From NCBI GenBank assembly GCA_051362555.1, contig CM120642.1, forward strand, positions 29,946,001 to 30,010,000: 64,000 bases of DNA, read 5' to 3'. The notes beneath the pieces are model-generated. The model worked only from the letters and a program-made list of their open reading frames with translations, searched no databases and was not told the origin of the DNA. Made by a program: the position numbers and the translations under genes. The stretch comes from Lingula anatina. Taxonomy: Eukaryota > Animalia > Brachiopoda. Positions 24,029 through 54,725 of the stretch are shown here, in pieces. How positions within the stretch are numbered: position 1 is the first letter of the stretch; each line of letters opens with the position of its first letter.

Positions 24029-24029
<1 letters not shown>

Positions 24030-24067
<38 letters not shown>
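24030..24067. repeat. (ATT)n microsatellite
   Basis: Read directly from the sequence. Confidence 0.95.
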
Positions 24068-33424: not shown

Positions 33425-34219
33425 TATAGGTTTATTATAAGCAGTGTAGATATTTTGTATGAGGATATCATCATCTTGGAGGGTTGGGTGGGGGAGGCGC
33501 ACTCCACCTTCCAATACCTTCCACCTTCCAAACTTATTTCTTTAACCCCTCACACATAAGTTGAAAAGACTATAAGACACAAAAGCCATGATACTTCCAC
33601 GGATATTTTCCTCATTTACTTAGTATCTGAATATGTTGCTTGTCATTTCTTGAATCTCTTAAATTGCCTTCAGCTATATTCATTTACGAATAATCGTCAC
33701 GTTTGTATATACTGCAAGTTTTAATGAAGTTCCTCGAAAGAAAATAAAAGTAATCCATTCACTGGTCACAAAGTCAAAATTGTATGTCTTCTTATCTTTG
33801 CAAGTGTAATTTATCAATTAAAATAATACTCCTCAAATAATAGTGCCTGATATGAGTATTTATTTCTAAAAAAATTAAACCAGGAAGACATGGTGGTCTG
33901 AATGACTCATCATCGTTCTTTTAGTACTACAGTAGGTCATTTTATTAGAAAAACAGTACTACGCAATTTTTTTTCTCTCCAAGAAAATGATATTTGGTAC
34001 GAAAATCTCCCGTAAAATAATGGTACTTTCAAATTTTAAAGACAAATCAAATAAACACACATCTTCACGTGTGTAGTGCCCACATAGGAGCAGTACCAAG
34101 CACGTTATTGATCTTCACGTTGTCTTCACGGCACCTAAAGAATTTTTCTGTTTATTTCCTTGTCAATCCACTACCTGATGGCAAAATTGAGGCCACCGAT
34201 ATGTTCTTTTCGTGATTCA

Positions 34220-35898
34220 ATGTACTGCGTAATGGCTGCTAGGATGTACCACGTTCACCTTCTTTTTGTGTGTTTTATGGTGAATCTTTGGGCACCAGGA
34301 AATAGTAAGTACAACTGTACATTTATAACATGAAATGTAATTGATCTTGTATGTTTAAAACGTGTATGACTCCACGAAACGCAATGCAGGTAAGTATCAT
34401 TCCTCTTTCGCCACCCCGCTTCTTAGTGATTGTAAAATAATAACAGAAAAACGGTTACCATTTGTTTATATACTTTTATTTTAATTATTGTGCTTATTTT
34501 TTTCTTTTATGTCAACCAAAAGCAACGTCGACGGTTTCCAACACAAGTTCAGGAACATCGAATACCAGCACTACTAGTACCACTTTCTTAAATACCACTA
34601 CCGCTATCACCACGACAGTTTCCATTACGCCAAATGGCACTGATGGTAAGTTATCGATATATATCAAATTTAAGATATACTGATATCTTGATTTTTAAGA
34701 AGTAATCATTTCTGAAAAAATACATTTGCATGATCATTGACTTTTATGTTAGAATTTAGGCCCTACAAAATAAGTTGTTCAGAATAAAACGACCTTCATT
34801 TTAAATTGCTACTTAGTAGGCGTTGAAAAAAACTACAAAGCCCCTCGTACTGTTGGCTGCAAATTCATGTGCACTTGCAGTCGCCCTGTGAGGCACAAAA
34901 TACAACCACGTCCCCAGGGAGTTTCTAAAACTCAGAGAGCTCTCTCGGTGTTATAGTAGGTATTTTGGCAACAAGCACGTAATTAATCTCCACGTTGTTT
35001 CCACGGCACCTAAAGAATTTCTTTATTTCCTTGTCAATCCACTACCTGGTGGCAAAATTGAGGCCACCGATATGTTCTTTTCGTGATTTAATGTACTGCA
35101 TAATGGCTGCTAGGGTGTACTACGTTCACCTTATTTTTGTGTGTTTTATGGTGAATCTTTGGGCACCAGGAAACAGTAAGTACAACTATACATCTATAAC
35201 ATGAAATGTAACTGATCTTGTATGTTTAAAACGTGTATGTACATGTACATATGACTCCGCATTGCAAGTAGGGATCATTCACCTTCGCCACCCCGCTTCT
35301 TAGTGATTGTACAAACAATGACAGAAAAACAGTTACCAGTTGTTTCTGTACTTCTGTTTTTATTATTGTGCTTATTTTCTTTCTTTCATGTCAACAAAAT
35401 ACAACGTCGACGGTGTCCAGCACACGTTTAGGAGCATGGAATACCAGCACTGCTAGTACAACTTTCTCAAATACCACTACCGCTATCAGCACGACCGTTA
35501 CTGCAGACTGCATTACGCCTAATGTTACTAATGGTACGTTATCCACATATGTATCAAAGTTAAGATATACTGATATCTTCATTTCTAAGAAGTAATCATT
35601 TCTGAAAAAAATACGTTTGCATGATGATTGAGTATTGACTTTTATGTTAAAATTCGAGCCATTCAAAATAAGTTGTTCAGAATAAAACAAACTTTAAAGT
35701 AAACTGCTCCTAAGTAGATGCTGCAAAAATAACAGGGCACAGGTTATACAAGCCCCTCGAACTGTTGGTTGCAAATTCATGTGCACTTGCAGTCGCCCTG
35801 TGAGGCACAAAGTACAACCACGTCCCCAGGGAGTTTGTAAAACTCAGAGAGCTCTCTCGGTGTTATAGTAGGTATTTTGACATCAGTGTGTGCGTGCA

Positions 35899-35934
<36 letters not shown>

Positions 35935-37360
35935 GTATGTTGACTTGCTGGCACGATATTACATTGCACTTCAAGTAATGGTCACTCCTATTACAAATTT
36001 TTGTTATTGTTAAACCTACAGAAGAAAAACAGCAACCAGTTGTTTGTGATGATATCAACTTTATATATTTTAGTCTATCTATATTATTACGTTTATCACT
36101 TTCTCAGATACCACTTCCACTAACAGCACGAATGATTGTATGACGCCTACTGCCACTACTGGTAAGTTATAAATACATATGAAAGTTAAGATGTAAGTCA
36201 ACTAAATTCTTGATTTTGTTGGGAACTAATTATTTCTTAAAGAGGTACGTTTACATGATCATAAAGTATTGACTTTCATTTTTAAATTTTAGACATTTAA
36301 AGTAAATTGTTCAGAATAAAATGACCTTCACTGCTAATTCCTTCCAGTAAGTCTTAAAAAAACTATATACAAAAGACCCACAGCTTTTCCACGCTCCTCG
36401 TACTGTTGGATACATAACCACCTGCATTTGCAGATACCTTGGAGGCAACCACAACACCCAAGCCAGAAGAACCACCGCCAGTCGGTGCTATAGTTGGTCT
36501 CTCTACATCACTGGCGTTAGCAGTTCTTATCCTGTTACTGTGTGGTCTACTTGTATATCTACGACAGAGGAAGACTACACGTTTTAAGAGGTAAAGGAAG
36601 CCCTATGTATAAAAAAACTTTAAAAAACGCAAAATAATCTGTAAAGCATTAAGAAGTATTACGTAAACTATTAGACATTAATGTCTGTGTTCATTTTCTA
36701 TACATAGACTTTGTAAAACTGAAGAAGTATTATTGTAATAAATTTTTCATGTTTCATTTTTAATGTTTCAAGGTTTTCTTTGAAATCCCCATTGTATTCA
36801 TTTCAGGCCAAATTTTTCAAATCAAGCAATGGAAATGGTAAGGATTCAAAATATTTCACTAGTTTTTCATCCACTAATTTTCTTTATGCGTAAATTTAAC
36901 GTAGATCTACCCGTTGAAAACAACTGTGAAGTAGTAGTGAAGCTTTTGTAATTTCAAAAAATATATATCAAAATATTTTTCTAAACATTATGCCTATTCT
37001 GTTTGTATATCTTGCTCTAGTATTTAATGTAATATTTCTCAGGAACCAACGAGAACAACAGATTTCACACCCAATGGGAAGTCTATGGTAAATGCAGGTG
37101 CTTCCCGGAGCCACGATAACAATTTCACCTATTTCGTCAAAAGCGAACATATGAACGGATCTGCCGCGAGCGACGCCAATGAAGATGGACATGACTACCT
37201 AGATCTTAGTTCTGCCGGTACACCACCCAATGAGGAGTATTCGTATGCATATGCTTCTGTTGGTGGCAAGAAAGCCGAGATGGAATCAGGAGAACAGAGC
37301 AAGAAACAAAAACCCGAAGCCTTTGAGATGCAGCAAATGTATTTGAATGATTTACCCTAA
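34220..37360 (+). CDS. Receptor A: single-pass type I mucin-like membrane protein with tyrosine-motif tail; exons 34220-34304, 34523-34645, 36108-36161, 36434-36590, 36807-36837, 37043-37360
   Basis: Signal peptide (..MYHVHLLFVCFMVNLWAPGN), Thr/Ser-rich exons with N-x-S/T sequons, TM VGAIVGLSTSLALAVLILLLCGLLVYL followed by RQRK, a 31-nt micro-exon, and a tail with DYLDL, EEYSYAY and MYLN. All GT/AG junctions are in frame (phases 1,1,1,2,0). Confidence 0.8.
34971..35885 (+). pseudogene. Internal tandem duplicate (~875 bp) of receptor A exons 1-2 plus a decayed TM-exon fragment
   Basis: 34097-34970 is repeated at 34971-35880. The copy of exon 1 (35091-35175) is intact, but the exon-2 acceptor is mutated (caaaag>caaaat). 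The TM-like fragments at ~34881 and ~35793 carry stops, and the second ends in a (TG)n run. Confidence 0.75.
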
Positions 37361-38684
37361 CCATGCAGCAGTGCCCATATTCGCCATAAGGATTTGATAA
37401 AGTGCATGCCAAAGATTTAATCTTAATGTGGAGATAAATATCAACTTTAAACCATTTTGTGCAAATCCTCTTTTTCTGCAAAATTGATACCTCAAGCTTA
37501 TAGGAATGCTAGACCGTAGTTATTACAAAACAAATTCATCAGCGTTTTTTAATTATTTATTATTATTTTTTTTTTTTTGGGGGGGGGGGGGGGAGCGTTA
37601 AAACTTTCAATTTTTTTTCGCCAAACGGTACACCTCTAACTATATATCAACAGTCAGCGAGAGAGGAAATACTTCAGCTGCTTAAACTTCATGCAGACTT
37701 CCTCAATGAACCGATCGTCAAATCTAGGTCATTTTACCAATAGAAACGATTTAGGACCAAATCTTAATGATAAGGAAATGACAAAGCGGTCTTTAAATGT
37801 ACTGTGAAATGTTTTTCGATAAAGAGTGCGTGCATGTATTCATGTCGAGACAGTCTAAAATCTCATGGTAATGTCCAATATAAATCTATCTGTTCAAATA
37901 TTACGTAAATGGGGTATATTTATTCTTACAGGTATACTAGTATTGCCCTGTTAGAAGAATAATTCAAGATTATTAAGAGACGTAATGGTCGTTCAATGGT
38001 TCATTACATGTACCACTGGTCTCTTGATTGATATATACATGTATATGCGGGATTAATTCACTAACATTTAACACAAATTCAAAACAATTGCGTCAGATCG
38101 ATCATCTGATTCCCAGTTTATTTTTTACTTGTTTATTGTTTAAATAAAGGTATTTAATGACCAGAGCAGGAATTTTGTAGAGGATTGCGGATGGGGTGCG
38201 CTCGCTTACAAACAGCAAACAAAATGAAAACACGCTACGAGACACAAAGAACGAACCTCATACATGTACATGTAATACCTTCACCCATACACGATGAACT
38301 TTTGGGCTCCCCCCCCCCCCCCCACACACACACACACACACGAACACGACCTCACCTCTTGTCCCAGTGCACCATATATACAGTATAACTGACTCTCTTT
38401 AGGATATATATACCGATTTAAACAAGGTGCATATTGTCAAATTTATCATTTTAAAAATTTATCATTTAAAAATTGTGGCATATGTTGGGCCAAAGATATC
38501 GATGTGCTTGCTCCCTAGCCACTCGAAACTCCTGGATATCATTTGCCGTTTCTATTCCATTTTCTAAGAAGGAAAATAACCATTTTTCGTATCCTGAAGC
38601 TTTTTGCTCAGGAATGTATTGTATAATATCAAGAATGTATCACTAGGCTGTCCTGCAGGCCTCTAGCTAGCAATTATGTAAGAA

Positions 38685-39256
38685 TTGGCAAGGCCTTCCG
38701 TATGACGTGTAACGTATAGTACAATACGTAATACGTTTTACGTACGCGAGAAAGCTAGCAGTGGTTTTGGCAGGTCTCACTCCGTATGCGTTTTTTTTAA
38801 TATTATTTTTATTTATATTATATATAAATATTATAATATTTGGATTCTTTTTAGATAGATGATTGATTAAGATGTTGAATGGAATGTGTTATTTACGTCA
38901 ATTGATACCGCAGATCCTGTTGTTTATGAAAAAAATCAACTTAAATTGAATTTGATACTACTACGGACGACTGATTGCCTGGCTGTTTTTCCAGCTGTTT
39001 TCACAGAGTATTTCTACCGACAGCGTCTAAAAGTGATTCAGTGGAATCTTAACTCCCTATATATTCCTCTGCAGTATGTTAAACTTGAACGAAATAAGCG
39101 TAAATCTGTTAAATTCGATACGTTTCTTACCTACGTGTAATCACCGATTCATACGTAGTGCCGTATGACTTATGACTTGTCCTTGAGAAAAACTACGCAC
39201 AAAGTGATGACGTCGCACGTTATACGTCGTACGGAAGGCCTTGCCAAAACTCTCTA
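38685..39256. mobile_element. MITE (~570 bp) with ~31-bp TIRs upstream of glycosyltransferase copy 1
   Basis: ttggcaaggccttccgtatgacgtgtaacgt (38685) vs acgttatacgtcgtacggaaggccttgccaa (to 39247). Absent at the paralogous site ~47580. Confidence 0.88.
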
Positions 39257-39383
39257 TTATTAACCAACGTATGGTGCAATTGTCATGGATAATAGATGGT
39301 TCATTGAAGTGATCGACATTTTCATATTGTTTATTTATTTATCAATCTCTGTAAGTCAGTTTAAATGCTGCGGAGTGGATGTC

Positions 39384-40379
39384 ATGGCGAAAAAAGGGCT
39401 GGGTTTTGTTTTCTTCACAGCCAGTGCGGCTCTGCTCATTCTGATGGTTACTTTCACCACTATCCTCAACAAGAAAATCCGTCACATATCCAAACAGGAA
39501 ACGCAGCCCGATTGTTTAGTTCCAGAGTCAGTTTGTGAGGAAAAGCTACAGAAGAAACCATACCTGTGGTATCATCTCAAAAGGTATCCGTACAATTTTG
39601 GTGCCCCTTGTAGAGTGGACGAGGGACCGTTTCTACTTGTCCTAGTTATATCTGATCCTCGAGATTTTCAGTCCAGACTGACGTTTAGAAAAACTTGTGG
39701 AAGTGTTCCGGAATACTTGGGGCAACCAATTAAAACCGTCTTCTTTGTAGGGAATTCAAAATTGCCACACGTTGAGGAAAAAATCGTAAAAGAAAGCGAG
39801 CAGTTTGGAGATCTAGTTAAAGTCGATTTTGTTGACACGTACAAGAATTACACATTGAAATCTATTCTCGCCCTTCGCTGGGTAGCAGAGTACTGTCCTA
39901 GGACTCGTTTTGTCGTAAAATGTGGACATGACGTCACCGTTAACTATAGAGGCGTCATACGGTACCTGACACGTCTTCCGGCCAATAATTCTGGGAAACT
40001 ATTTGTTGGTTTTCTTTATGCTAATGGACCTGTACGTCGCAATTCACGCAGTAAGTACTTCCAGACCCGAGAGGAGTACAGTGACAGGAAATACCCACCT
40101 TATGTGGCTGGATTCGCATCGCTTCTTTCCTATGACGTCATCAAACTTCTTCACTCAGCGTCGTTATGGAAACACCTTTTCATGGAAGATGTCTTTTTAT
40201 CTGTCCTGGCACATGAAAATCACGTCAGACTTGAACATAATTCGGCCTTTATGAGTGAATCACGACGTTTTAACTTCAGTGATCTTTGCCGTGTGCGTAA
40301 TATGTTGGCAATTCACAAAAAACCTAATGCGAGGATTTGTGACCTTTATAAAGACAAAGATAAAGCCTGCACACATTGA
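39384..40379 (+). CDS. Beta-1,3-galactosyltransferase-like protein (GT31 family), copy 1, intronless type II membrane protein, 331 aa
   Basis: N-terminal signal anchor; GT31 motifs FLLVLVIS, R...RKT, VFFVG, E.EQFGDL..VDFVDTY.N.TLK, YPPY..G, MEDVF. The DxD position reads KCGHD. Confidence 0.9.
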   Translation: MAKKGLGFVFFTASAALLILMVTFTTILNKKIRHISKQETQPDCLVPESVCEEKLQKKPYLWYHLKRYPYNFGAPCRVDEGPFLLVLVISDPRDFQSRLTFRKTCGSVPEYLGQPIKTVFFVGNSKLPHVEEKIVKESEQFGDLVKVDFVDTYKNYTLKSILALRWVAEYCPRTRFVVKCGHDVTVNYRGVIRYLTRLPANNSGKLFVGFLYANGPVRRNSRSKYFQTREEYSDRKYPPYVAGFASLLSYDVIKLLHSASLWKHLFMEDVFLSVLAHENHVRLEHNSAFMSESRRFNFSDLCRVRNMLAIHKKPNARICDLYKDKDKACTH

Positions 40380-41498
40380 AATACAAGAGTGAGGAATGGT
40401 AAAAGAAAACAGCCAGTTTGGAGAGCTTATTAAGATGTATTTATTGGACACATACAAAAATTATACAATGAAAGATATTGTCGTGCTTAGTTGGGTAGGA
40501 GAACATTGTTCTATACCCGCAGTAAAAACTTTCAGACACAAGAGGAATCGCATCTTTCCTCTCATATGACATCATTAAACGTCTATAAGCGGTTGTTATG
40601 GGAACACCATTTCACAGACTAGTTTTTCTAGTATTTTTATGGAAGATGTGAACATAAAGACGAAGGTTTAGCATATAGCTGTGAACACATTTGTTTTGAA
40701 TATATTTGTACTATGAAAAAGCACACCCCGAGTCTTTAATATTCTGTACATGGACGCTTGGGCCACGCCTTAACCACATGAATATGTCTAGGTAATGCAC
40801 AAGTATTACAAGAACGGAAATATAGTTGCGATGATTCTGTCGGCTTGAGGAAAATTGCCCCAGATTTTTTCAACATGAAGGTCGTTATCGAGGAGACTCC
40901 AAAGCAGTAAATGGATTGGGGATCATCAGCGTTAGATAAAAACAAGACTTGCGACATTGTGTGATGTCATTCGAGATTACAAAACGTTTAAGAAACCGCG
41001 TAAGTGTTAAACCATCTGTGCGTCGAAGTTGAAATTTAAGGATTATCGTCTTACACTGAAAGCAATGTATTATTAACACGCACAACATAATGAATTCGTA
41101 CGGTTGAACAGACAGATATTCGACGAAATTTAGGAAAGAACAACCAGAAAAGCATCCATGGATAAATTCTTTGAGCTGTTATACGTCGCCGCTCCACACT
41201 GGCTTATCTGCCTTTATTTCCGACCCCACTCGCTTCCAAATCCCGCAAAATCTCTTTTGAAATAAATCATAAACAATGGCGATAAAGTAGTTTCAAATGA
41301 AGTTGTCTATAAACTATACATTTACTGGGCCATGAGAGGGATTCTAAAAAAAGTATTCCGTTTGCAGCTAAAATTTCTAATTTTAAGCCTTATTCTTTTA
41401 TTTGGACCTCTAATAAGCTAATTGCATTCCTTCTCACAAGGGCATGTTTAAGTTTGTGACAATATATTGATGTGGGCTCTAAATGGGAATGGTTAATT

Positions 41499-41707
41499 AC
41501 CTCCGCCAAGGAGGTTATGTTTTCACCCCTGTTTGTCTGTCTGTCTGTTTGTTTGTCATCAACATAACTCAAAAAGTTGTGAACCAATTTTGATGAAATT
41601 TTCAGGGTAGGTGGGAAATGGGTTAACTTAGAAGTGATTTTGGTGGTGATCCGGTTCAATAATAATCAATAATAATAATAAATTGCTGCCTTGGAGTGCT
41701 TTTCTAG
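41499..41707 (+). mobile_element. Non-autonomous Helentron-associated (HINE/DINE-1-like) element
   Basis: Begins acctccgccaaggaggttatgtttt, has an internal (GTCT/GTTT)n tract and cataactcaaaaagtt...ttttgatgaaatttt core, and ends gccttggagtgcttttctag. Inserted at TT; absent from the paralogous site ~49843 (ggttaattatctc). Confidence 0.82.
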
Positions 41708-42018
41708 TTATCTCTTTTTATCTTAAAAACTTAGGCGTGAGTATTTTAATAAAAAGGCAATAATAACCAGTTTAGCTGCATTTAGTTGCGTTACCGTAAT
41801 TTGTCAGCTCTAAGGTTGCTCTTGGGCTACATAAACAAAATTCGATTCTACACACATTTAACAAAGTCAGCTTTCACCAGTTCATAAGTACTGCATAAAA
41901 GTTTGTCAAATGGGCATGTGCTTCCTTGCATTTACTGACCCTCTTTGAATCCTACGCAGCAAGGAGATACATAGACTACATGTACATTCAGATTTACACA
42001 TCACATTTTAATTTTCAG

Positions 42019-42141
42019 TATTCGTATGCATATGCTTCTGTTGGTGGCAAGAAAGCTGAGATGGATTCAGGAGAACAGAACAAGAAACAAAAACCAGGAG
42101 CCTTTGAGATCCAGCAGATGTATTAGAATGATATAAACTAA
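42019..42141 (+). pseudogene. Fragment of a receptor terminal (cytoplasmic) exon with premature stop
   Basis: YSYAYASVGGKKAEMDSGEQNKKQKPGAFEIQQMY* matches the tail of receptor A (TTG>TAG). The 3' flank to ~42720 aligns with 37360-38000. Confidence 0.8.
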
Positions 42142-43336
42142 CCATATAGACAACAGTGCCCATATTAGCCATAAGGATTTGTTAATGTACACACCAAAGA
42201 CTTATTTTTATGTAGGGAAAATACTTTTTTTCTGAAAAATAGATGTCTAGATCATGGTTATACGAATGCTAGGTCGTTGTTATTATAAAACTAACCCATC
42301 AGATGTTTTTGGGAGGGGGGTTAAAACTCTGAACTTTTCTTCGCCAGACAGTAGCCTACAACTCTAGCTATAGCCAATAGTCAACGAGATTAGAAATGCT
42401 TAAACATTTTAGACATCACACAGACTTCCTCAATGAACTGATCGTCAAATCTAGGTCATTTTGCCGATAGAAACGATTAAGGACCAAATGTAAGTGATAA
42501 GGAAATGAAAAAGTGGTCTTTAAATGTAGTGTGTAATGTTTTTTTAATAAAGATTGTGTGAATTAATGTCAAGATAATTTGATATTTGACCGTAATATAC
42601 GACATTTCTGTTCAAATATTCAGAAATAGGAGATATTTATTCCTAGTTTATATAAATAAACGTATAATCCTGTATATTAATTCAAGATTAAGAGATGGAA
42701 TGGTCGCTCAGTGGTTCAACTGTACCCCAGATTACGTGATTCCAATTTGTGTGCGGAATTATTTAAGCTGTGCACTTAGAATTTACACAACTGAAGTTCA
42801 GCTTTGGCAGAACAACAAATTGATTTTTTTCTTTTTTTTAACAACACGTTATATTGAAGTACTTTATTCACAGGGTAAATATTTTTGTTAGCGGACCTAA
42901 AAGATCAGGAACGAAGGGGGGCACTACCTTTACCAAAAGTGAAAAAAGTAAATACACACTGAGACACATAATGCCTTCTTCATAATAGCCTTACTTACGC
43001 TCGATGAACTTTGTGTGCCCCTCCCCACACCTCCGATTTTTTATATTTTAGCATCATTACACATGTATTGCGAGTTTCCAGACATCATCAAGCATGTCTG
43101 ATATGGTTTCATTTGTCATAATTCTGACTTAAGTTGAGGCAAAATAACTAAATGCAGATAACCCTTCTCTTTGTTCTCTTTAAACGTTTTACTTATGGAT
43201 AACGTCATTTCCATTCGCTCGTGCTCAAAAGAAATTATATGTATAAAGCAGGGGAAGGATTTTTCAGTACTTTATCAGCTCCGTTAAGATATGCTTCGCT
43301 CTTGATAATCATTTCTTAGGCCGCATTCACAACAGC

Positions 43337-43450
43337 GGACTAACTAATCCGAGGGTCAAATATGGCTACCCAGTTCAGTGTCTATTAGCGGATATTAGAC
43401 GGCAAACTTTGACGTCTGTCGTCATATTTGACCTTCGGACTAGTTAGTCC
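43337..43450. mobile_element. Short foldback/MITE remnant (~33 bp inverted arms)
   Basis: ggactaactaatccgagggtcaaatatggctac vs gtcgtcatatttgaccttcggactagttagtcc. Confidence 0.6.
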
Positions 43451-44122
43451 CTATAATTAATGAACCTTTGTCTGCTCAGTACAGTGGACATTGCTAAAGT
43501 GCAAATATTTTCTTTCTTAAACCTACTAATGTACCACAGAAACCCAAACGCAATAGACAGGTAATGGAAAAACCTACAGTACAGGAATGGACATTAAAAT
43601 GTAGAAATATGATGCATTAAAATACATTGTCCTGTTTAATAGCAAAGTTCACATTTGGAAGGAGTACCCAGCATGCATGTCCCTAGAAAACTAAACTTGA
43701 GAGATCCTCTGGTCAGAGACCAGAGAGCGTGGGAGCAATGATGCAGAACCACACTGGAAGGAGAGAGCACACCGAGATAATTCGGTTTAACGTGACAGCG
43801 AGAGTCCCCCAAGATAAAGAGTTCGCTTTCCATTCATTTGTGCAGGTAAGCCGCTCTCTAGATTTTGTCTCACTTAGGTCAGGCTAACCCAAGCCATTAT
43901 AACTAAATGGAGGGTGGACTTTCTGTTACACGGACCCTCAGTTTTGATGCACTGATGCACCTCTGTGACTGATGGATGAAGATGTTGAGCTGGTTGAGTA
44001 CCCAACTCATAGATTGTTTTAACGTTATCAGGTTGACCTAAGAATGTACATTGTTCCTGTTGATAATATGTATTGTACCTGTTGATACTATGGCGGCTAT
44101 CCATTTTTCATCTCATAAATAT

Positions 44123-46484
44123 ATGACAATAATGTCAGTGTATCGCCTTGGCATTCTTTGTTTATGTTTTATAGTGAACCATTGGGCGCCAGGAAGTAGT
44201 AAGTATTACATGGAATATAAAAGTAACTGAACTGGTGCAGGTCCACGTGTCTCTGTCAATGGTCTGCGATAGTTTGAATCATATCTTGTTTTTTAACTGC
44301 AATATAAATATCGCAGTGCATTATACATATCGTAGTGCAGTTATGTATTTTTCTCTATCCTTGCTCCTCTATAAGTGTGCTAGTTCACCTGTTACGGTGA
44401 CGGCTCTGATGGCTCTACTCTTAACCTAAGATCAAAGTCGGTCCCTTGTCTCTAAATTGATACTGAGAGCCTCTGTTCTGGTCCTACACCTGTGACGTAA
44501 CCCTTTGTTTGCGGCAGAAGAAGCCGTTTACCAGTTGCATTTATCGCTTTTCATCATCACTACCCTGCTCATGCCGAGGTGGCGCATAAGGCCTCCTCCT
44601 GAGCTTGCCTGTCTTGTCTGTCACTTTTACAATCATTTATTTTCACGAAAAGTGGCCTTGCCGTGTGGACAAATCGACGGATACTGCTTAGCAGAGTATG
44701 CATATGCTCCGAACCCTGCAGATTGCACCACGTTCTATCGGTGCGTCAATGGTAAATGGAGAATTATTGGCTGTATCCATGTATCCCCCGGCAGCTGTGG
44801 TACTCCTGTTGAATACTGTAGACGAGTCACTTGTCCAGAAACCACCTCGTCGACGATGACCACCCTTTCTTCAGATGTGTCTTTAATGATAAGGACTATT
44901 GAAACAACACCTGAAACAACACATACTGATAGGTGGAGTTCCAGAGACCAACGTGCCGCTACCACTACTCATACGGCTATTTCAACACATGGTGTGACGA
45001 CTGGTATTACAGCTGGTGAGTTATTAAAATAATGATGGCAAGCTTAGATACAAGTTTCCTTTGCTTTTTTCTTGCGTCGCAATCATTCTTCCTTACTTTA
45101 TCTTCGATGGAGCGTATTTACAGTAATACAATTTTAAACAGTATTTTCAAAATTAAATCATATAATAAGTATACGTTTCTTCAGGAATTTTGATTCTAAA
45201 ATTGACTTTATTATAACTCCAAAAATATGAGGAGTTTTTAGATTGAAATGAGTTACTTAGAACGAGATTGTATATTCAGGGAATAGAGAACTTCTCAGTG
45301 TTGAAGAATACATGTACATGTAGCGTCATATCTTTCAAGTCCACGCTCCGCAGCTATATTTTCCTCATTGGACATAAAATCATGTTAACTTGCAGCTACC
45401 TCTACGGAACTACCCTCAACCACAGCATCCGGAAGCGGGTCAGTCTCTGAGAATTGCCTTACCCCTGGTGCTATATTAGCTGGCACTGTGACATCAGTAG
45501 CCTTGGCAATACTTAACATTATACAGTGTGCACTGCTTGTGATTCTGTGGCGGAGAGGAAAACGTACTGAAAGGTATAAGAGTGTTTTTGAAAAACTACT
45601 GCGATACTTAAAGTGCAAATGTTCAACGCACATACATCCTGTAGTTGCCCTACATCGTTGGGTGCCATGAGCTATATTATCGTACAATGAAATACAGGAT
45701 TTCGTTTGAAAATAAGTACTATCCATTTAAATTGGTTCAAGTATGAAAGCCACTGTTATATTCATTTTAGATCAAATCAACCAATTCCATCAGTAGCAAA
45801 GGTAAGGATGTACAAACATTTTTAAGTGTTTTGATATTTATTCTTTACATGTGCGAGGGTAATAACTATAATGGTAAAAATGAGGTTTTAAGTAATGAAA
45901 ACAAAATCAAAACTGTGAAAAAAAGCTTCATCGGATCTTAATTTTTGATAGTTAAAAAGTTCTCATTTATGATAGTTACAAAAATTTGAATCACCTGTAG
46001 ACTTTTTTGTCTGTTCACTCGGACAGACATTGTCACATTTAAATTTACTATGAACAGACGAAACAGTCATCAGGTAAATCATATTTGTGGATCTATCATA
46101 TATTAAATAAGTTCAACCCCTTTTCAAAATCTTGATTACTCTAGAATTTAATGCAACATTTATCAGGGACAACAAAGAACAACAGAACTCACACCCAATA
46201 AGCACCCCATGGCAAATGCAGATGCTTCCAGAAGTAACGGTGACAATTACATGGCTCTTGTCAAGAGCGAATGCATCGATGGATCAGCCATGAGCGACGG
46301 CAATGAAGGTAGAAATGGTTATCAAGAACTTCGCCCTGCTGAGCCGCCATCTAGTGACGCGTATTCGTATGCATTTGCTTCTGCTGGTGGCAGGAAACCC
46401 GAGATGAAATCAGGAGAGCAGAGCAAGAAACATAAATCGTACGTCTATGAGATGGAGCACATGTATTCGAATGATTTACACTAA
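44123..46484 (+). CDS. Receptor B: signal peptide + 8-Cys CBM14/peritrophin-A-like domain + mucin stalk + TM + tyrosine-motif tail; exons 44123-44198, 44653-45015, 45396-45573, 45771-45801, 46167-46484
   Basis: MTIMSVYRLGILCLCFIVNHWAPGS | MALPCGQIDGYCLAEYAYAPNPADCTTFYRCVNGKW..C..C..C..C + T/S stalk | TM GAILAGTVTSVALAILNIIQCALLVILWRR | 31-nt exon | tail with NYMAL, GYQEL, YSYA, VYEM, MYSN. Junctions are canonical and in frame. Confidence 0.85.
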
Positions 46485-46614
46485 CCACGCTGGCAGCAGT
46501 AATCTACACAGGGGTTTGATAATGGAAATTTCAAAGATCATCTGAAAACTTTTTTTAAATAGACGTCTCTAGATGACAGGCCGTGGTTATTGTCAAACAA
46601 GCCCGTCAGCTTTT

Positions 46615-49600
46615 CCATTTTACCGATAGAAATGATTTAGGATAAAATTTGTGATAAGGAAGGAAAAGTGGTATTTAAATGAAGTGTTTTTTAAGAGTAT
46701 TAGGATTCATGTCGAGATAATCTAATATTTCGCCGTAATGTCGAACATAAATCTATCTATTCAAATATTACGTAAAAAGGTTATATTAATTCTTACAGAT
46801 ATACTAGTATTACCCTGTTAAAAGAAAAAATAAAGATTATTAAGAGACGTAATGGTCGTTCAATTGGTTCAGTACATGTACTACTGGTCTCTTGCTAGAT
46901 ATATACATGTATATGCGGGATTAATTCACTAACATTAAACACAATTTCAGAACAATTGCGTCAGATCGATCAACTGATACCCAATTTATTTTTACTTGTT
47001 TATTGTTTAAATAAAGGTATTTTTTTACCAGAGCAGGAATTTTGTAGAGGATTGCGGATGGGGTGCGCTCGCTTACAAAAAGCAAATAAAGTGAAAAGAC
47101 GCTAAGAGACACAAAGAACCAAACTCACAATACCTTCACCCATACAAGATAAACTCTTGGGCTCCCCCCCCCCCCCACACACACACACACAAACACACAC
47201 ATACGAACACGACCACACCTCTTGTCCCAGTGCACCATATATACAGTATAACTGACTCTCTTTATATATATATATATATAAACGATATCTGTGCTGTGTC
47301 GCGATTTACCGATATAAACAAGGTGCATATTGTCATATTTATCATTAAATTAAAGATATCGATATTACTCAAAATGCTCTTTTGAGGTAATGCACTTGCT
47401 CCCTAGGCACTTGATACTTCTGGATAACATTTTCCGTTTCTGTTTTTCTATTCCATTTTCTAAGAAGGAAAAAAACAAATTTTCGTATCATGAAGGATAT
47501 GCTCAGGAATGTTTTGTATAATATCAAGAATGTATCACTGGGCTGTCCTGCATGCCCCTAGCTAGCTGTTACGTACGAATATTATCCAACGTATGGTGAA
47601 AGCAAAGCACTCCCAAGTCTTGAATTATTCGTGAAATTGTCATGGGTAATGGTGGTTCATTGAAGTGATCGACATTTTCATATTGTTTATTTATTTATAA
47701 ATCTCTATAAGTCCGTTTTCATGCTGCGGAGTGGATGTCATGGCGAAAAAAGGGCTGGGTTTCGTTTTCTTCACAGCCAGTGCGGCTCTGCTCATTCTGA
47801 TGGTAACTTTCACCAATATCCTGAACAAGAAAAGGCGTCACATAATCAAACAAGAAACGCAACCCGATTGCTTAGTACCAGAGTCAGTTTGTGAGGAAAA
47901 GCTACAGAAGAAACCATACCTGTGGTATCATATCAAAAATTATCCGTACATTTTTGATGCCGCTTGTAGAGTGGACGAGGGACCGTTTCTACTTGTCCTA
48001 GTTATATCTGATCCTCGAGATTTTCAGTCCAGACTGACGTTTAGAAAAACTTGTGGAAGTGTTCCGGAATACTTGGGGCAACCAATTAAAACCGTCTTCT
48101 TTGTAGGGAATTCAAATTTGCCACACGTTGAGGAAAAAATCGTAAAGGAAAGCGAACAGTTTGGAGATCTAATTAAAGTCGATTTTGTTGACACGTACAA
48201 GAATTACACATTGAAATCTATTCTCGCCCTTCGATGGGTAGCAGAGTACTGTCCTAGGACTCGCTTTGTCGTAAAATGTGGACATGACGTCACCGTTAAC
48301 TATAGAGGCGTCATACGGTACCTGACACGTCTTCCGGCCAATAATTCTGGGAAACTATTTGTTGGTTTTCTTTATGCTAATGGACCTGTACGTCGCAATT
48401 CACGCAGTAAGTACTTCCAGACCCGAGAGGAGTTCAGTGACAGGAAATACCCACCTTATGTGGCTGGATTCGCATCGCTTCTTTCCTATGACGTCATCGA
48501 ACTTCTTCACTCAGCGTCGTTATGGAAACACCTTTTCATGGAAGACGTCTTTTTATCTGTCCTGGCACATGAAAATCACGTCAGACTTGAACATAATTCG
48601 GCCTTTATGAGTGAATCACGACGTTTTAACTTCAGTGATCTTTGCCGTGTGCGTAATATGTTGGCAATTCACAAAAAACCTAATGCGAGGATTTGTGACC
48701 TTTATAAAGACGAAGATAAAGCCTGCACACATTGAAATACAAGAGTGAGGAATGGTAAAAGAAAACAGCCAGTTTGGAGAGCTTATTAAGATGTATTTAT
48801 TGGACACATACAAAAATTATACATTGAAAGATATTGTCGTGCTTAGTTGGGTAGGAGAACATTGTTCTATACCCGCAGTAAAAACTTTCAGACACAAGAG
48901 GAATCGCATCTTTCCTCTCATATGACATCATTAAACGTCTATAAGCGGTTGTTATGGGAACACCATTTCACAGACTAGTTTTTCTAGTATTTTTATGGAA
49001 GATGTAAACATAAAGACGAAGGTTTAGCATATAGCTGTGAACACATTTGTTTTGAATATATTTGTACTATGAAAAAGCACACCCCGAGTCTTTAATATTC
49101 TGTACATGGACGCTTGGGCCACGCCTTAACCACATGAATATGTCTAGGTAATGCACAAGTATTACAAGAACGGAAATATAGTTGCGATGATTCTGTCGGC
49201 TTGAGGAAAATTGCCCCAGATTTTTTCAACATGAAGGTCGTTATCGAGGAGACTCCAAAGCAGTAAATGGATTTGGGATCATCAGCTTTAGATAAAAACA
49301 AGACTTGCGACATGTGTGATGTCATTCGAAATTACAAAACGTTTAAGAAACCGCGTAAGTGTTAAACCATCTGTGCGTCGATGTTGAAATTTAAGGATTA
49401 TCGTCTTACACTGAAAGCAATGTATTATTGACACGCACAACATAATGAATTCGTACAGTTATTGAACAGACAGATATTCGCCGGAATTTAGGAAAGAACA
49501 ACCAAAAAAGCATCCATGGATAAATTATCTGAGCTGTTATACGTCGCCGCTCCGCACAGGCTAATCTGCCCTCATTTCCGACTCCACCAGCTTCCAAATC

Positions 49601-50155
49601 CCGCAAAACCTCTTTGAAATAAATTATAAACAATGGCGATAAAGTAGTTTCAAGTCAAGTTTCCTATATACTGGACTATGAGAGGGATTGTAAAAAAAGT
49701 ATGCAGTTTTCAGCTAAAATTTCCAATTTTATGCCTTATTCGTTTATTTAACCTCTAATAAGCTAATTGCATTCCTTCTCAAAAGGGCATGTTTAAGTTT
49801 GTAACAATATATTGATGTGGGCTCTAGATGGGAATGGTTAATTATCTCTTTTTCTCTTAAAAACTGAGACGTGAGTATTTTTTATAAAAAAAAGGCAATA
49901 TAAACCAGTTTAGGTGCTTCTCGTTGCATTACCGTTTGTTTGTCAGCTCTTAGGTTGCTCTTGGACTCCCTACACAACATTTGATTCTACACACTTTTAA
50001 CAAAGTCAGCTTTCGCCAGTTAATAAGTACTGCATGAAAATTTGTCAAATGGGCATGTGCTCCCTTGCATTTGCTGCCCCTCTCTGACCTAGATTCCCAG
50101 CTGTATTAATACGCAGCTAGGAGTTATTTAGACTATACACATTGGATTTACACAT
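46615..50155 (+). repeat. Segmental duplicate of ~37730-42005 (receptor 3' flank + GT31 gene + downstream region)
   Basis: Collinear similarity throughout and near identity across the GT31 catalytic region and ~0.6 kb of 3' flank. Differs mainly by two transposon insertions in the first copy. Confidence 0.93.
47740..48735 (+). CDS. Beta-1,3-galactosyltransferase-like protein (GT31 family), copy 2, intronless, 331 aa
   Basis: Same motifs as copy 1, with about 13 aa differences by manual count. The DxD position also reads KCGHD. Confidence 0.9.
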   Translation: MAKKGLGFVFFTASAALLILMVTFTNILNKKRRHIIKQETQPDCLVPESVCEEKLQKKPYLWYHIKNYPYIFDAACRVDEGPFLLVLVISDPRDFQSRLTFRKTCGSVPEYLGQPIKTVFFVGNSNLPHVEEKIVKESEQFGDLIKVDFVDTYKNYTLKSILALRWVAEYCPRTRFVVKCGHDVTVNYRGVIRYLTRLPANNSGKLFVGFLYANGPVRRNSRSKYFQTREEFSDRKYPPYVAGFASLLSYDVIELLHSASLWKHLFMEDVFLSVLAHENHVRLEHNSAFMSESRRFNFSDLCRVRNMLAIHKKPNARICDLYKDEDKACTH

Positions 50156-50557
50156 TGCAATAGCTGGGTCAGTCCAACTGTGCGAGAGATTCTCCTTCAA
50201 GTGCAATCAGTGTATTAAACTTAATTGTCTAACAGGCCTTCTTGAGGAGTTACGGGTGATTAAGTATCCTGTGCTGATTAAGGTGATCCCACCGATGGTA
50301 CTTAAGCGAGAATCCCACGCAGAGTTGGATCGAACAAGCTAGTACCACGTGCGAATCTGAATGCGTCCATAATATACTTGTCGGATATTAGTGCCTTTTA
50401 GTTTTACATGTCTGTAGTGCAATTATAACGTGGAAACAAGTTCCTTTCAATATAATTTCACCATTGCTTGGAACCTGGCTTGTTTGAGTACAGTCATCCA
50501 CTGGTTTAATGAGAGTTTAGACATACCTCCACCAATCGTCTGGCTACAGGATCTGTC

Positions 50558-50663
50558 AGAAGACCGCTGTCATAGAGGACCGCTGCAGAGAAGACCGCTG
50601 TCGCCAAGGGCCGCTGAGAAGACCGCTGTCGTCGAGGGCCGCTGAGAAGACAGCTGTCGCTGA
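50558..50663 (+). repeat. GC-rich minisatellite (~28-31 bp unit, ~3.5 copies)
   Basis: Repeats of agaagaccgctgtcg..gagggccgctg. Confidence 0.85.
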
Positions 50664-51577
50664 AAAAACTGCTGAGTGAACTGTCGCTGACAAGTCCTAC
50701 ATTTGTAAGCTCAGCATCCAGCCCATACAACAGACGTCGCCGTCATTCTTCCCACAGACAGCTTGAAGTGTGCTTCCTCTTCACACAACGCTATGCCTCA
50801 TCTGCAACTTTCAGCATCGCTGCAGCGCAGCGATGATCCAACGCCTCAATTTAACAAGGACGCTGAATGTGATCATGAGTCTGAAAACGAAGATACAGAG
50901 AGTGGGCTTGGGTTGACTGGCAGCGCCTTTCCTCTGCAACTGCATCAGCATGAGGGTCAACAGTTCTGTCGGCGTGGACAACGCAGAGTTCTTGATTCAG
51001 TTTCAGTTTTTTGTTTAAATAAAGGTATTTTATGACCAGAGCAGGTATTTTGCAGAGGAACGCGGATGTCATGAAAATGGAAGAAAAGATGTCATGAGAC
51101 GCATAGAACCATGCTCATAATACACACACCCATGCACAATGAACATCTGGGGTCATTCCCCCCCCCCCCCCCAACTGACCTCCACCCCTTGTCTCAGTGC
51201 ACCATACATGTACACACATCCACCTGCCTCAGTACTTGAGCGTTGCAGTACCATTTCGTGATAGTTTATTCACGGATCTAGAAGACCGGATAGGGAGGCA
51301 CACGCTCCATTTTTTCCAAAAAGAAACTTGATTTAGTAATTCTCCAGCAGTGCAATAATTGAGCCCGGGGACGGGTTGAAATCATTCACATGATATCACT
51401 GTCTATAGGCTAGGAAGAAAATACCATGGATGAAGATGTTGTTGAGTATCCGGTTTATTTTTAGTTTCAACGTTATCAAGTTGACCTCTTTTTACTTCCT
51501 TGTTTTTTTCCGTATATTTGTACCTGTTAGTAACATGACGGTTACCTATGTGTCGTGTCCGTCATAAATATATTACA

Positions 51578-52522
51578 ATGTCAGTGTATCACCTCGGCCT
51601 TTTTTGTTTGTTTTTTATCGTGAACCACTGGGCGCCAGGCTGCAGTAAGTATTACAGTGAATATAAATGTGTCTAGCTGTACACGTACCTGTTAAATACA
51701 GCATGTATGACTTAGCCAATGGTATGCATTGATTTAAACCGTGCATGTGCTGGTGCTTGAATAGAGTTGCGTTGCTAGTCATAATGCACTCAGTATAGTG
51801 CAGGGCCATTCCTTATAAAACTTAGTTGAACAAACAACAATAGGTAAACAGTTACTACTACAGATGTACGAGGTGAATCAAGCTTTATTTATTTTGCAGT
51901 GCCTATATCACTGTTGCATTTATCTTTTTTATTTTTATTTTATTTTATTTATTTATTTATTTTTATTTTATTTTATTTTTTGACAAGTGGCCTGGCCGTG
52001 TGGATATTATGCTGAGAACTGTTCAGAAGAAGAGCCATATGCTCCAAATCCTGCAGATTGCACACAGTATTATCGGTGCGCACACAACAAATGGACACTT
52101 TATCACTGTAGCAATATATCCCCTACCAGCTGCGGTATTCCAGTGGAATACTGTAAACGAGTTACTTGCCCAGAAACTACTTCGTCGACGACTTCTACCG
52201 TATTTCCGAGTGTACATGTATCTTTAATGACAAGAACTATAGAAACATTACGTACTGATAGGTCCAGTCCCAAATACCAACACACCTTTACCAGTCCTAT
52301 TACAACAAATGGTGTGGCATCTGATACTGATGCTGGTACGTTATTAAAATAATAATAAGAAGCTTAATAAATGCAAGCATACTTTAACTTTACTTAAACT
52401 TTTTGATCCTGCATTGCAATATTTCTTACTTACTTTGTCACCGACGGAGCGCGTTATAACGTATTTCAAACATCATTTACAAATTTTAATAATGATTCTT
52501 AACATTATTATAACTTCAAACA

Positions 52523-52593
<71 letters not shown>

Positions 52594-53716
52594 TGTATTT
52601 AATTCAGTTTAAAAAGGAGTTGTTTGAAACGAAATTTTACATATTCAGGAAAACGGGAAGTGACTTTCTCTGTGGAGATGAAAAGTACACGTGTACAAAA
52701 TTCCCGGTCCACATTGTGTCAGGTACCAGTATAAAAACTCTGTATACTTTCAGTGACTTTTACAGAACCAACCTCAACGACAGAACCCAGAAGCGGGTCA
52801 GTTTCAGGAAATTCACTTACATTTACCCCTGGTATTGTAGCTGGTACCGTGACATCAGTGGTGCTGGCACTACTTAACATTATACAGTGTGTGCTGCTTG
52901 TGATTCTGTGGCGGAGAACTAAACGTACTGACAGGTAAAGAACCGTTTTTAAATAACTACTGTATTTTAGAAGTATTGCCTAAAGGAGTTTAGAATTCTA
53001 TGTCCAACGTATTTCATACGTACATTTTATTATTTTATGCTGTCTTATAGCGGTGAGTGGCATATAATGGTAAAGTGTAATTGTGTTTGGTATGAAACAA
53101 AAAAACATATTCTCTTATATTGGTGTTAGAGTGTTTATTGAATCCACCGTTGTATTCAATATAGGTCTGATCAATCAATCAATCCACTCAGTAGGAAAGG
53201 TAAGATTCAAGATATTTTTTCTGGTTTCTAAATTCTATTTCCTAAAATAGTATTCTTCACATGAACGAGGCCTAGTCAATAACTGTTAAAAATATAAGAG
53301 TTTTTAGAAAAGAAAACAATTCAAGCTGTTTTCTGATTATTAAGCCCAACCTACTTCAATATCTTAATTACACGAGTATTTTAAATATCATTTATCAGGA
53401 ACAAGCAACTACAACCGATTTCACATCCAATAAGCAACCCATGGCAAACACAGCTGCTTCCAGGAATTACGGCGACAATTACATGTTTCTTGTCAAAAGC
53501 GAATACATCGATGGATCAGCCACAAGCGACAGCAATGAAGATAGAAATGGTTATCAAGAACTTCGCTCTGCTGAAACGCAATTTAGTGACGAGTATTCAT
53601 ATGCATATGCTTCTGCTGGTGGCAGGAAAGCCAATGTAGAGCCAGGAGAACATGAAAAGAAACATAAGTCAGACGTCTATGAGTTACAACTTATGTATTC
53701 CAATGAATCACAGTAG
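51578..53716 (+). CDS. Receptor C: paralog of receptor B; exons 51578-51644, 51988-52335, 52754-52934, 53165-53199 (frameshifted micro-exon), 53399-53716
   Basis: MSVYHLGLFCLFFIVNHWAPGC | MAWPCGYYAENCSEEEPYAPNPADCTQYYRCAHNKW..C..C..C..C + T/S stalk | TM ..VVLALLNIIQCVLLVILWRR | micro-exon of 35 nt instead of 31 | tail exon intact on its own. Confidence 0.78.
52526..52591. repeat. (TA)n microsatellite
   Basis: Read directly from the sequence. Confidence 0.95.
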
Positions 53717-53909
53717 CCACGCAGGCATTAATAACCTTTATAAGGATTTGATAATGAAAAGTTCAAATAATTTAATGAGACTTGACTTTAAATAACATTT
53801 AAGTGCAGATCTTCTGAAAACTTTTTTTCGGAAAATAGGTATCTCTAGCTTTTACGAATGACAGGCCATGGGTATTATACAACAAGCCCGAGTGTATGGA
53901 TTCGTGTCG

Positions 53910-54725
53910 ACATTCGTTGTCGTTGTACAGTGTGTTATATTTGCAATGGCAAAGAGGGAACAGGACAGCTCTGAGAGGTAATGTGTAATCGGTGAAAAAT
54001 TACAAAAATGCTGTATGTCCAATTAGGATATGTTCACCCTATAGTACTGTAGAAACCTGGGTGTCGCATTAATGTAAAGTGCAGTAAAAACGGACTGTTT
54101 ACTTAAATCACTTTAATTGTCAGAAAGAGATATCTTAAAGCTACAGTGTGTTTTTCCCACTGCAGGTCAGTTCAATCAAATCCAAGAGTAGCACAGGTAA
54201 AGATTTTGTTCTTGATTTTATCATGCTTGAGTAAGGAACTTAAACATGGAAATAACTATGAAGTGGTTGCAATGGTAAAATTATGAGAAAAATAAATGGT
54301 TTTACATATTTATGTCATATTCATGTTATTAATTAAATATTCTTTATCTATGTCCAACTTAGGCATTTTAAATGTAACATATTTATCAGGAACAACGAAG
54401 AACAGCAGATCTCACATCCAGTCAGCAGCCCATGGTAAACACAGGTGCTTCTGTGAGTCACGCCAACAATTACATGTCTCTTGTCAAAAGCGAATACATC
54501 GATGGATCCGCCATGAGCGAGGACAATGACGGTCGACCTGAGTATCTAGAACTTGGCGCTGCTGAGGCCCCATGGGCGCCGTTTGATGACGAGTATTCTT
54601 ATGCATATTATACAGCTGCGGATGACGTGAACCCCGAGGGTGGATCTGAAGAGAAGGACACGAAACAAAACTCGGACGTCTGTGAGATGCAGCACGTTTA
54701 TACGATTGATGTACATAACACGTAA
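53910..54725 (+). CDS. Receptor D remnant or alternative tail module: partial TM exon (~53910-53977), intact 31-nt micro-exon 54166-54196 and intact terminal exon 54390-54725
   Basis: TFVVVVQCVIFAMAKREQDSSER|gta resembles the TM-exon end of B and C; SVQSNPRVAQ micro-exon; tail EQRRTADLTSSQQPMVNTG..NYMSL..EYLEL..EYSYAYY..VYTI. Confidence 0.7.

What the first reader, a model, noticed from the sequence alone, without database searches (positions are those of the whole stretch)
34097..54725. Tandem array pairing tyrosine-signalling mucin/CBM14-like receptors with GT31 glycosyltransferase-like genes: candidate glycan reader/writer or recognition locus
Seen: order receptor A - GT31 - tail fragment - receptor B - GT31 - receptor C - receptor D remnant, all on the + strand, with a shared exon plan (signal exon ending WAPG, T/S stalk, TM, 31-nt micro-exon, tail exon). 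Established: T/S stalks and N-x-S/T sequons are glycosylation substrates, GT31 enzymes extend such glycans, and birth-and-death arrays of single-pass pTyr receptors typify invertebrate immune/allorecognition loci. Inference: the receptor and the GT31 gene may form a co-evolving functional cassette. I do not recognise this receptor family. Passive co-duplication is the null hypothesis.
Basis: partly seen in the sequence, partly recalled or inferred. Interest (0 to 1): 0.8.

Follow-up and report, generated by a model that had tools for sequence, protein, structure and literature searches.

The report
Brachiopod mucin-receptor array with passenger glycosyltransferases
In a lamp shell (Lingula), a row of related sugar-coated cell-surface protein genes, some of them broken, alternates with two near-identical sugar-transferring enzyme genes; the alternation likely comes from one duplication rather than a working partnership, and the surface proteins likely act as variable recognition receptors, a layout resembling parasite-resistance gene clusters of water fleas and snails.

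Summary
The genes and their order are real. The single-pass genes match Lingula anatina RefSeq models (A 97%, D tail 95%), and a profile of the family finds only 4 proteins among 1.84 billion, all Lingula. The receptor–GT31 "cassette" is not supported. Both adjacencies trace to one tandem duplication of [spacer–GT31–receptor]. The GT31 copies are 97% identical (99.5% in the 3' flank), while the tails of their neighbouring receptors are 52% identical. In the database, the 4 receptor loci and the 4 other members of this GT31 subfamily lie on different contigs. RNA support is thin: ≤3.6x, mainly one of four runs, with no splice joints listed. Best reading: a lineage-specific, haplotype-variable birth-and-death array of mucin-stalk, tyrosine-tail receptors with a passenger GT31. 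Closest analogues are the Daphnia F locus and snail PTC2. The scan had not noted this elsewhere.

The parts
34178..37360 (+). Receptor A: signal exon 34178-34304, stalk exon 34523-34645, 36108-36161, TM exon 36434-36590, micro-exon 36807-36837, tail 37043-37360; mucin-only ectodomain, 269 aa in the all-canonical model
   Evidence: matches RefSeq XP_013412601-3 with TM and tail identical
34972..35885 (+). Second copy of A's exons 1-2 (alternative first exon 35091-35175; stalk exon 35390-35533 with no in-frame AG acceptor)
   Evidence: 85% duplicate; RefSeq isoform X3 starts here; acceptor checked
38685..39247 (.). MITE-like insertion with 31-nt terminal inverted repeats, upstream of GT1 only
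   Evidence: gap in the unit alignment
39384..40379 (+). GT31-1: intronless type II ORF, 331 aa, DxD replaced by G181-H182-D183
40396..40512 (+). Decayed fragment of a further GT31 copy directly after the stop (also at 48752-48868)
   Evidence: 56-59% aa identity to GT residues 134-172
42019..42126 (+). A-like tail fragment with a premature stop, followed by 3'UTR-like sequence to ~42718
44090..46484 (+). Receptor B: exons 44090-44198, 44653-45015 (8-Cys CBM14-like domain + stalk), 45396-45573 (TM), 45771-45801, 46167-46484; 332 aa, open, all GT-AG
47740..48735 (+). GT31-2: 331 aa, 96% aa / 97.2% nt identical to GT31-1
51578..53716 (+). Receptor C: exons 51578-51644, 51988-52335, 52754-52934, 53165-53199 (35 nt, frameshifting) or 53130-53199 (70 nt, cryptic, in frame), 53399-53716
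53895..54725 (+). Receptor D remnant: 3' part of TM exon (to 53977) fused to C's 3'UTR, micro-exon 54166-54196, tail 54390-54725
   Evidence: RefSeq XP_013412650 has the stalk and full TM exon
37730..46615 (+). Inferred tandem-duplication unit 1 (spacer – GT31 – remnant – receptor B); unit 2 runs 46616 to ~53890
   Evidence: B's first 3'UTR segment is 83% like C's and 50% like A's; from 46616 it is 87% like A's spacer

Best explanation
This is a tandem array of a single-pass membrane-protein family found only in Lingula in my searches, whose members likely act as variable cell-surface recognition or adhesion receptors, and the two GT31 genes are likely passengers copied with one receptor in a single duplication and later homogenised. 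Shown: exon plan, signal/TM hydrophobic segments, S/T stalk, 8-Cys module in B and C, four invariant tail tyrosines, broken copies, and the identity gradient over the GT block. Inferred mechanism: the glycosylated stalk lifts the N-terminal module (CBM14-like in B/C, bare glycans in A). Ligand binding clusters the receptors (B, C, P0006 and P0010 have Asn/Gln and Cys in the TM). A Src-type kinase phosphorylates the acidic, kinase-less tail, and SH2 proteins dock on YxxL, YSYA, YxN (Grb2-type; A, B, C) and YxxQ (STAT3-type; C and P0006 only). Motif meanings are recalled, not tested. Inferred history: A–spacer–GT–remnant–X–D, then duplication of spacer–GT–remnant–X giving B and C, then gene conversion over the GT block, then a deletion removing the 5' part of D.
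For: Family restricted: 3 of 3491 candidates and 4 of 1.84 billion representatives, all L. anatina. Breakpoint signature. Identity rises from 70-78% (tails) through 79-93% (spacer) to 98-100% (GT 3' half and non-coding flank), then falls to 87-88%; 18 of 28 CDS differences lie in the first 240 nt (none of 100,000 random placements reached this). dS: GT 0.05, tails A/B 0.35, tails B/C 0.28. Receptor loci lie on contigs of 826,993 and 445,682 bp; GT-subfamily proteins on 238,026, 243,366 and 55,470 bp. Turnover: C frameshift, D deletion, tail fragment, and an off-frame, tail-truncated RefSeq paralogue P0010. Haplotype variation: A differs from RefSeq at 4 substitutions + 2 indels, all extracellular, and at 0 of 156 TM/tail residues (Fisher p=0.007); the RefSeq gene P0006 on the same contig is only 85%/63% (tail/TM exon) like C and 70%/67% like B. 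RNA reads over B's TM exon carry the P0010-type residues.
Against: No function was tested. Tyrosine conservation is only modestly above background (4 invariant Tyr among 27 invariant of 104 columns; Fisher p 0.04-0.24, 1 of 6 rows under 0.05). Tail dN/dS of 0.5-1.2 shows weak constraint. Expression seen is very low and not copy-specific. Both GT ORFs are intact with dN/dS 0.3-0.4 on few changes, so they are not obviously dead weight. Contig non-overlap rests on protein annotations and contig lengths; I did not see the reference DNA, so an unannotated or gapped GT31 there is possible, and those contigs could be neighbours or haplotigs. C's 3' spacer is deleted, so I cannot exclude that each receptor once had its own GT. 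Ectodomain-biased differences are also expected from a low-complexity stalk under weak constraint.
Confidence: 0.6

Rival explanations
1. The locus works like the Daphnia Pasteuria-resistance F locus: GT31 and receptors are both under microbe-driven selection and shape surface glycans and attachment sites, and are linked as a variable haplotype block without one-to-one pairing.
For: Same ingredients as the F locus: lineage-specific O-glycosylated single-pass proteins with a Tyr motif, a carbohydrate-binding domain, galactosyltransferase-like genes and presence/absence differences (PMC9894429 passages). No database protein is closer than 77-84% to the window's GTs, which may mean the GTs are absent from the reference haplotype. 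Older GT31 debris lies at the locus.
Against: No phenotype or population data. A and D are 95-97% like their RefSeq counterparts, so only the middle of the array looks hyper-divergent. The GT copies are homogenised rather than diversified. X7 reads on the GT CDS show that another individual carries a ≥90% similar copy.
Confidence: 0.2
2. A decaying, near-neutral array: only A (and D in some haplotypes) matters; B, C and the GT31s are redundant or dying copies, and the GT31s may be pseudoenzymes.
For: C frameshift, D deletion and P0010 frameshift; tail dN/dS near 1 in some pairs; ≤1.1x depth on receptor B in three of four runs; G at the D245 position, where D245A cuts kcat/Km 14,100-fold in B3GNT2.
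Against: The Cys domain keeps 8 of 8 Cys (dN/dS 0.51) and the TM exon has dN/dS 0.35 between B and C. The x-H-D motif, catalytic base and C-terminal His are kept across six subfamily members down to 47% identity.
Confidence: 0.13
3. One reading: each receptor is paired with a GT31 that writes the glycans on its stalk or its ligand, and the two co-evolve.
For: Two receptor–GT adjacencies, same strand, intact ORFs; both gene types have reads in run X7.
Against: A single duplication event; near-identical GTs beside very different ectodomains (A has no Cys module and 6 sequons; B has the module and 0 sequons); no GT after C or D; no shared contig in the database; non-canonical DxD. Golgi enzymes act in trans, so linkage is not needed (established knowledge).
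Confidence: 0.07

Closest known systems
Daphnia magna F locus / Pasteuria Resistance Complex (PMC9894429, PMC11500718; passages read)
   Same: Tandem lineage-specific single-pass, O-glycosylated proteins of 240-365 aa with a cytoplasmic Tyr (STAT) motif, mixed with galactosyl-/fucosyltransferase and carbohydrate-binding genes; gene presence/absence between haplotypes
   Different: No homology detected. The GTs named for the F locus in the passages read are an alpha-1,3-fucosyltransferase and a lactosylceramide 4-alpha-galactosyltransferase-like gene; the wider complex also lists beta-galactosyltransferases. The Daphnia locus has a mapped resistance phenotype; this one has none.
Biomphalaria PTC2 / GRC polymorphic transmembrane clusters (PMC7494358; passages and first part of Results read)
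   Same: Lophotrochozoan cluster of single-pass genes of 166-530 codons, no homologues outside the lineage, low paralogue identity, whole-gene indels between haplotypes
   Different: PTC2 genes have no known domains besides the TM and no GT is reported there; the region is 450 kb with mostly unalignable haplotypes; here the array is about 21 kb and flanking members are 95-97% identical between haplotypes.
GT31 B3GALT5 / B3GNT2
   Same: PF01762; 8zwp E=4e-34 and B3GNT2 E=1e-26; residues matching D247, H376 (metal) and D333 (base) are kept
   Different: The D245 position is Gly (Arg in P0004), D246 is His and K149 is Ile; this defines a Lingula x-H-D subfamily of unknown donor or activity.
CBM14 / peritrophin-A domain
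   Same: N-terminal half passes the Pfam cut-off; best PDB match is an insect-type chitinase chain 3w4r, E=0.0035
   Different: 8 Cys; the C-terminal half is unmatched (faint hevein-family hit in B only, E=0.33); no Trp after the last Cys, where CHIT1 needs Trp465 (PMC4844120 passages).
Vertebrate sialomucin / transmembrane-adaptor-like proteins (Opalin, syndecan, TMEM154, SCIMP, EVI2B)
   Same: General layout; nearest Atlas feature hits
   Different: All scores ≤0.82, at the level reached by shuffled proteins; analogy only.

Membership tests
GT31 (PF01762) | Galactosyl_T domain above cut-off; type II N-terminal TM | tested here: met
   113-116 bits vs cut-off 23; hydrophobic N-terminus seen in the sequence
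GT31 (PF01762) | DxD motif | tested here: not met
   G-H-D aligned to B3GNT2 D245-D247 and to the B3GALT5 D-S-D; x-H-D in 6 of 6 Lingula members
GT31 (PF01762) | Catalytic base and metal ligands (D333, D247, H376) | tested here: met
   D269, D183, H311 align (roles from PMC7948508)
GT31 (PF01762) | Glycosyltransferase activity | not testable with these tools
   needs an assay; AlphaFold model too poor to use (pLDDT 43)
CBM14 | Pfam CBM_14 score | tested here: met
   23.3 and 27.3 vs 22.1 bits on trimmed domains; B was below cut-off (20.5) on the untrimmed ORF
CBM14 | C-terminal half with exposed Trp (Trp465/Trp55) | tested here: not met
   match ends at model position 31-33 of 53; no Trp after the last Cys
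CBM14 | Beta-sandwich fold | tested here: inconclusive
   pLDDT 55.6; 0 of 48,161 chains at Z≥2
ITAM/ITIM immunoreceptors | YxxL/I-x6-12-YxxL/I or S/I/V/L-x-YxxI/V/L (consensus recalled) | tested here: not met
   0 of 6 tails for either pattern
hemITAM receptors (CLEC-2 type) | Single YxxL right after a triacidic stretch (PMC3576117, abstract start in search listing only) | tested here: not met
   YxxL is invariant with acidic residues 4-6 upstream, but no triacidic run next to it (by eye)
Polymorphic TM cluster (PTC2/F-locus kind) | Tandem lineage-restricted single-pass genes | tested here: met
Polymorphic TM cluster (PTC2/F-locus kind) | Hyper-divergent haplotypes with gene presence/absence | tested here: inconclusive
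   D deleted vs present and P0006 unlike B or C, but compared only with proteins of one other annotation
Polymorphic TM cluster (PTC2/F-locus kind) | Association with pathogen resistance | not testable with these tools
   no phenotype data
Receptor–GT functional cassette | Conserved linkage and congruent divergence | tested here: not met
Receptor–GT functional cassette | Co-expression | tested here: inconclusive
   both types seen along their length only in X7, at ≤3.6x

The most novel reading that the evidence does not exclude
A brachiopod host–microbe recognition locus, convergent on the Daphnia resistance complex: a GT31 subfamily with a rewired x-H-D donor site puts an unusual sugar on the mucin stalks, hybrid CBM14/hevein-like receptors read glycans, and frameshifted tail-less copies (C here, P0010 in RefSeq) act as decoys, all segregating as haplotype blocks beside Xlox.
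Probability: 0.12. Interest if true: 0.75.

Novelty: new member of a known kind. Interest (0 to 1): 0.38.

Why it matters
If the array is a variable recognition locus, it extends the snail and water-flea pattern (clusters of orphan single-pass genes, sometimes with glycosyltransferases) to brachiopods, and gives a compact 21-kb target for population sequencing. Separately, the x-H-D GT31 subfamily is a testable case of either a changed sugar donor or a conserved pseudoenzyme. As a receptor–enzyme cassette it does not hold up, which caps the interest.

Tried and rejected
No whole genome is held for this window, so I could not count copies genome-wide or test synteny. One search listed no RNA holder; nine same-species raw-read runs were offered and four were laid. 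Reads were laid only on 38900-47100, so A, GT2, C and D have no read evidence; A's non-AG acceptors and C's micro-exon choice remain open. Word-index search with the Cys domain: 0 of 5 candidates scored. AlphaFold models of the Cys domain (pLDDT 55.6) and of the GT (43.2) were too poor; the one fold search found nothing. The Atlas gave only chance-level hits for P0006. High depth at 38900-39450, 41366-41913, 43284-43557 and 43832-44105 was rejected as gene expression: these are repeats (loose ends, inverted repeats). The RAMP4 tag on P0002 comes from a chimeric-looking N-terminus and was ignored. The tail tree did not resolve B, C, P0006 and A. Paper searches (with Lingula/ParaHox/immune-receptor terms) listed nothing describing this family or locus; I saw only titles and abstract starts for most. 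A term search of the Lingula genome paper's main text found no mention of glycosyltransferases or ParaHox. No supplements were read; those of PMC4595640 and PMC9894429 could bear on this. PMC13712769 (term search) added nothing. No complex prediction was run because no binding claim is made.
Full report
Setting. The window is animal DNA. All close database matches are Lingula anatina RefSeq proteins, and receptor A is 97% identical to one of them with an identical TM and tail, so this is Lingula, and a different haplotype from the annotated one. Upstream lie a C-type lectin pair, an Xlox/Pdx homeobox gene (best PDB match Pdx1, E=6.5e-34, next 8e-27) and an intronless nuclear receptor; downstream lies a Cys-loop channel. 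No second homeobox was found in the window.

Observation. Building the genes from splice sites gives A (269 aa with canonical sites only), B (332 aa, open), C and a D remnant, with intron phases 1/1/2/0, and two intronless 331-aa GT31 ORFs. RefSeq models reproduce A's exons and D's micro-exon and tail, so the plan is real. D lacks its signal, stalk and most of its TM exon, which RefSeq's copy partly has (stalk and TM; that model also lacks a signal peptide). B has no ectodomain sequon. A has no Cys module but has two signal/stalk exon pairs, and RefSeq lists an isoform from the second.

What the receptors are. A profile of six members (four window tails, P0006, P0007) hit 4 of 1.84 billion representatives at E≤0.001, all L. 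anatina. Three were in or equal to the input. The fourth, P0010, lies on another contig, reads the Cys exon off-frame and has a frameshifted tail. Pfam gives nothing above cut-off for P0005, P0006, P0007 or P0010. The 8-Cys module matches only the N-terminal half of CBM_14; its C-terminal half has a faint hevein-family hit in B (E=0.33) and lacks the terminal Trp that CHIT1 needs for chitin binding (PMC4844120, passages). Chitin binding is therefore a lead, not a result. The tails carry four invariant tyrosines, in YxxL, YSY and a terminal Y that is YxN in A, B, C and P0006; C and P0006 also have YxxQ. There is no ITAM or ITIM. The docking-site meanings are recalled. Tyrosine enrichment among invariant columns is weak (p 0.04-0.24).

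Is the pairing functional? Four lines say no. (1) One event: B's first 3'UTR segment is 82.6% like C's and 50% like A's, then from 46616 it is 87% like A's spacer. A unit of spacer–GT–remnant–receptor was duplicated once, which alone yields receptor–GT–receptor–GT–receptor. Because C's spacer is deleted, an older GT after C cannot be excluded. (2) No co-divergence: GT dS is 0.053 (0.028 in codons 81-331), against 0.35 for tails A/B and 0.56 for the B/C Cys domains. The non-coding 3' flank is 99.5% identical with a 267-nt perfect run, and 18 of 28 CDS differences crowd into the first 240 nt: the signature of gene conversion or repeated unequal crossing-over. Near-identical enzymes sit beside two very different ectodomains. 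(3) No linkage in the database: 4 receptor loci on contigs of 826,993 (three) and 445,682 bp; 4 GT-subfamily proteins (of 1358 candidates) on 238,026, 243,366 and 55,470 bp. The window's GTs form their own branch, 77-84% identical to the nearest. This rests on annotations; I did not see that DNA. (4) tblastn finds no GT after C or D up to the window's end.

The enzyme. Against B3GNT2, the metal ligands D247 and H376 and the base D333 are kept, but D245 is Gly, D246 is His and K149 is Ile. D245A lowers kcat/Km 14,100-fold in B3GNT2 (PMC7948508, passages); B3GALT5 also keeps this Asp. All six Lingula members share x-H-D across 47% identity, so it is an old, maintained feature: a shifted donor site or a pseudoenzyme. 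The premise that these enzymes extend stalk glycans is untested.

Expression. Four of nine offered runs were laid on 38900-47100 at 90% likeness. The GT1 CDS had 1.5-3.6x in X7, 0.6x in one bin of X6 and none in X1 or X4. Over B, X7 had depth in 6 of 9 bins, and the three empty bins are mostly intron; the other runs had traces ≤1.1x, almost all at the 3' end. All 10 listed joints are in repeats, none at an exon junction. The differences in the TM-exon reads turn B's sequence into P0010's, so the reads likely come from a P0010-type copy. This shows the family and a similar GT31 are transcribed at low level; it does not show that B is, nor co-regulation.

Variation. A differs from RefSeq only outside the membrane (6 events vs 0; p=0.007, though stalks are weakly constrained). 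D's tail is 95% identical, yet the third gene on that RefSeq contig is 85% (tail) and 63% (TM exon) like C and less like B in the tail. Against 1.6% genome heterozygosity (PMC4595640, passage), the middle of the array looks structurally variable, though P0006's position on the contig is not known to me.

Comparison. The Daphnia F locus holds tandem lineage-specific O-glycosylated single-pass proteins with a STAT motif, mixed with galactosyl- and fucosyltransferase genes that differ between haplotypes (PMC9894429, passages; PMC11500718, passages). Biomphalaria PTC2 is a lophotrochozoan cluster of orphan single-pass genes with whole-gene indels (PMC7494358). The Lingula array works like these in layout, without homology and without a phenotype, so membership is unproven. 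Broken ParaHox linkage is usual in lophotrochozoans (PMC13161344, passages), so the Xlox neighbourhood is not itself surprising.

Verdict. A real and apparently undescribed receptor family with an odd GT31 subfamily; the cassette is unsupported (about 0.07). Passenger GT in a birth-and-death receptor array 0.6; F-locus-like recognition block 0.2; decaying array 0.13. New member of a known kind; interest 0.38.

Noticed in passing
window 15827-28901 (+): Xlox/Pdx ParaHox gene (hexapeptide exon and homeodomain exon about 12 kb apart); no other homeobox in the 64-kb window, so no Gsx within ~15 kb upstream or Cdx within ~35 kb downstream.
   Followed up: partly
window 31264-32724 (-): Intronless 486-codon nuclear receptor ORF (zf-C4 + Hormone_recep) between Xlox and the array, with an EACKV P-box region; possibly a retrocopy.
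   Followed up: no
window 34511 and 35390: RefSeq's exon junctions for receptor A fall on AT (and AC for isoform X2) instead of AG in this window, after good pyrimidine tracts, in both duplicated exons: possible non-AG 3' splice sites, or lost acceptors in this haplotype.
   Followed up: partly
window 42005-42126: The A-like tail fragment begins right after a pyrimidine-rich AG in phase 0, so it could serve as an alternative last exon of A that skips over GT1; only 0.15x in one run.
   Followed up: partly
window 39384-40379 and P0001-P0004: Lingula GT31 subfamily with x-H-D instead of DxD, on at least three other contigs.
   Followed up: partly
window 1-3225 (+): Tandem pair of C-type lectin genes, 84% identical.
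   Followed up: no
window 57904-60784 (-): Exons of a Cys-loop ligand-gated ion channel.
   Followed up: no
window 43337-43450, 41500-41700, 43860-43945: Dispersed repeats with high RNA depth from other loci, one a short hairpin with 33-nt arms.
   Followed up: no
window 51006-51173: Remnant of the receptor 3'/poly(A) block (also at 38131 and 46998) upstream of C, after a GC-rich insertion at ~50160-51000.
   Followed up: partly
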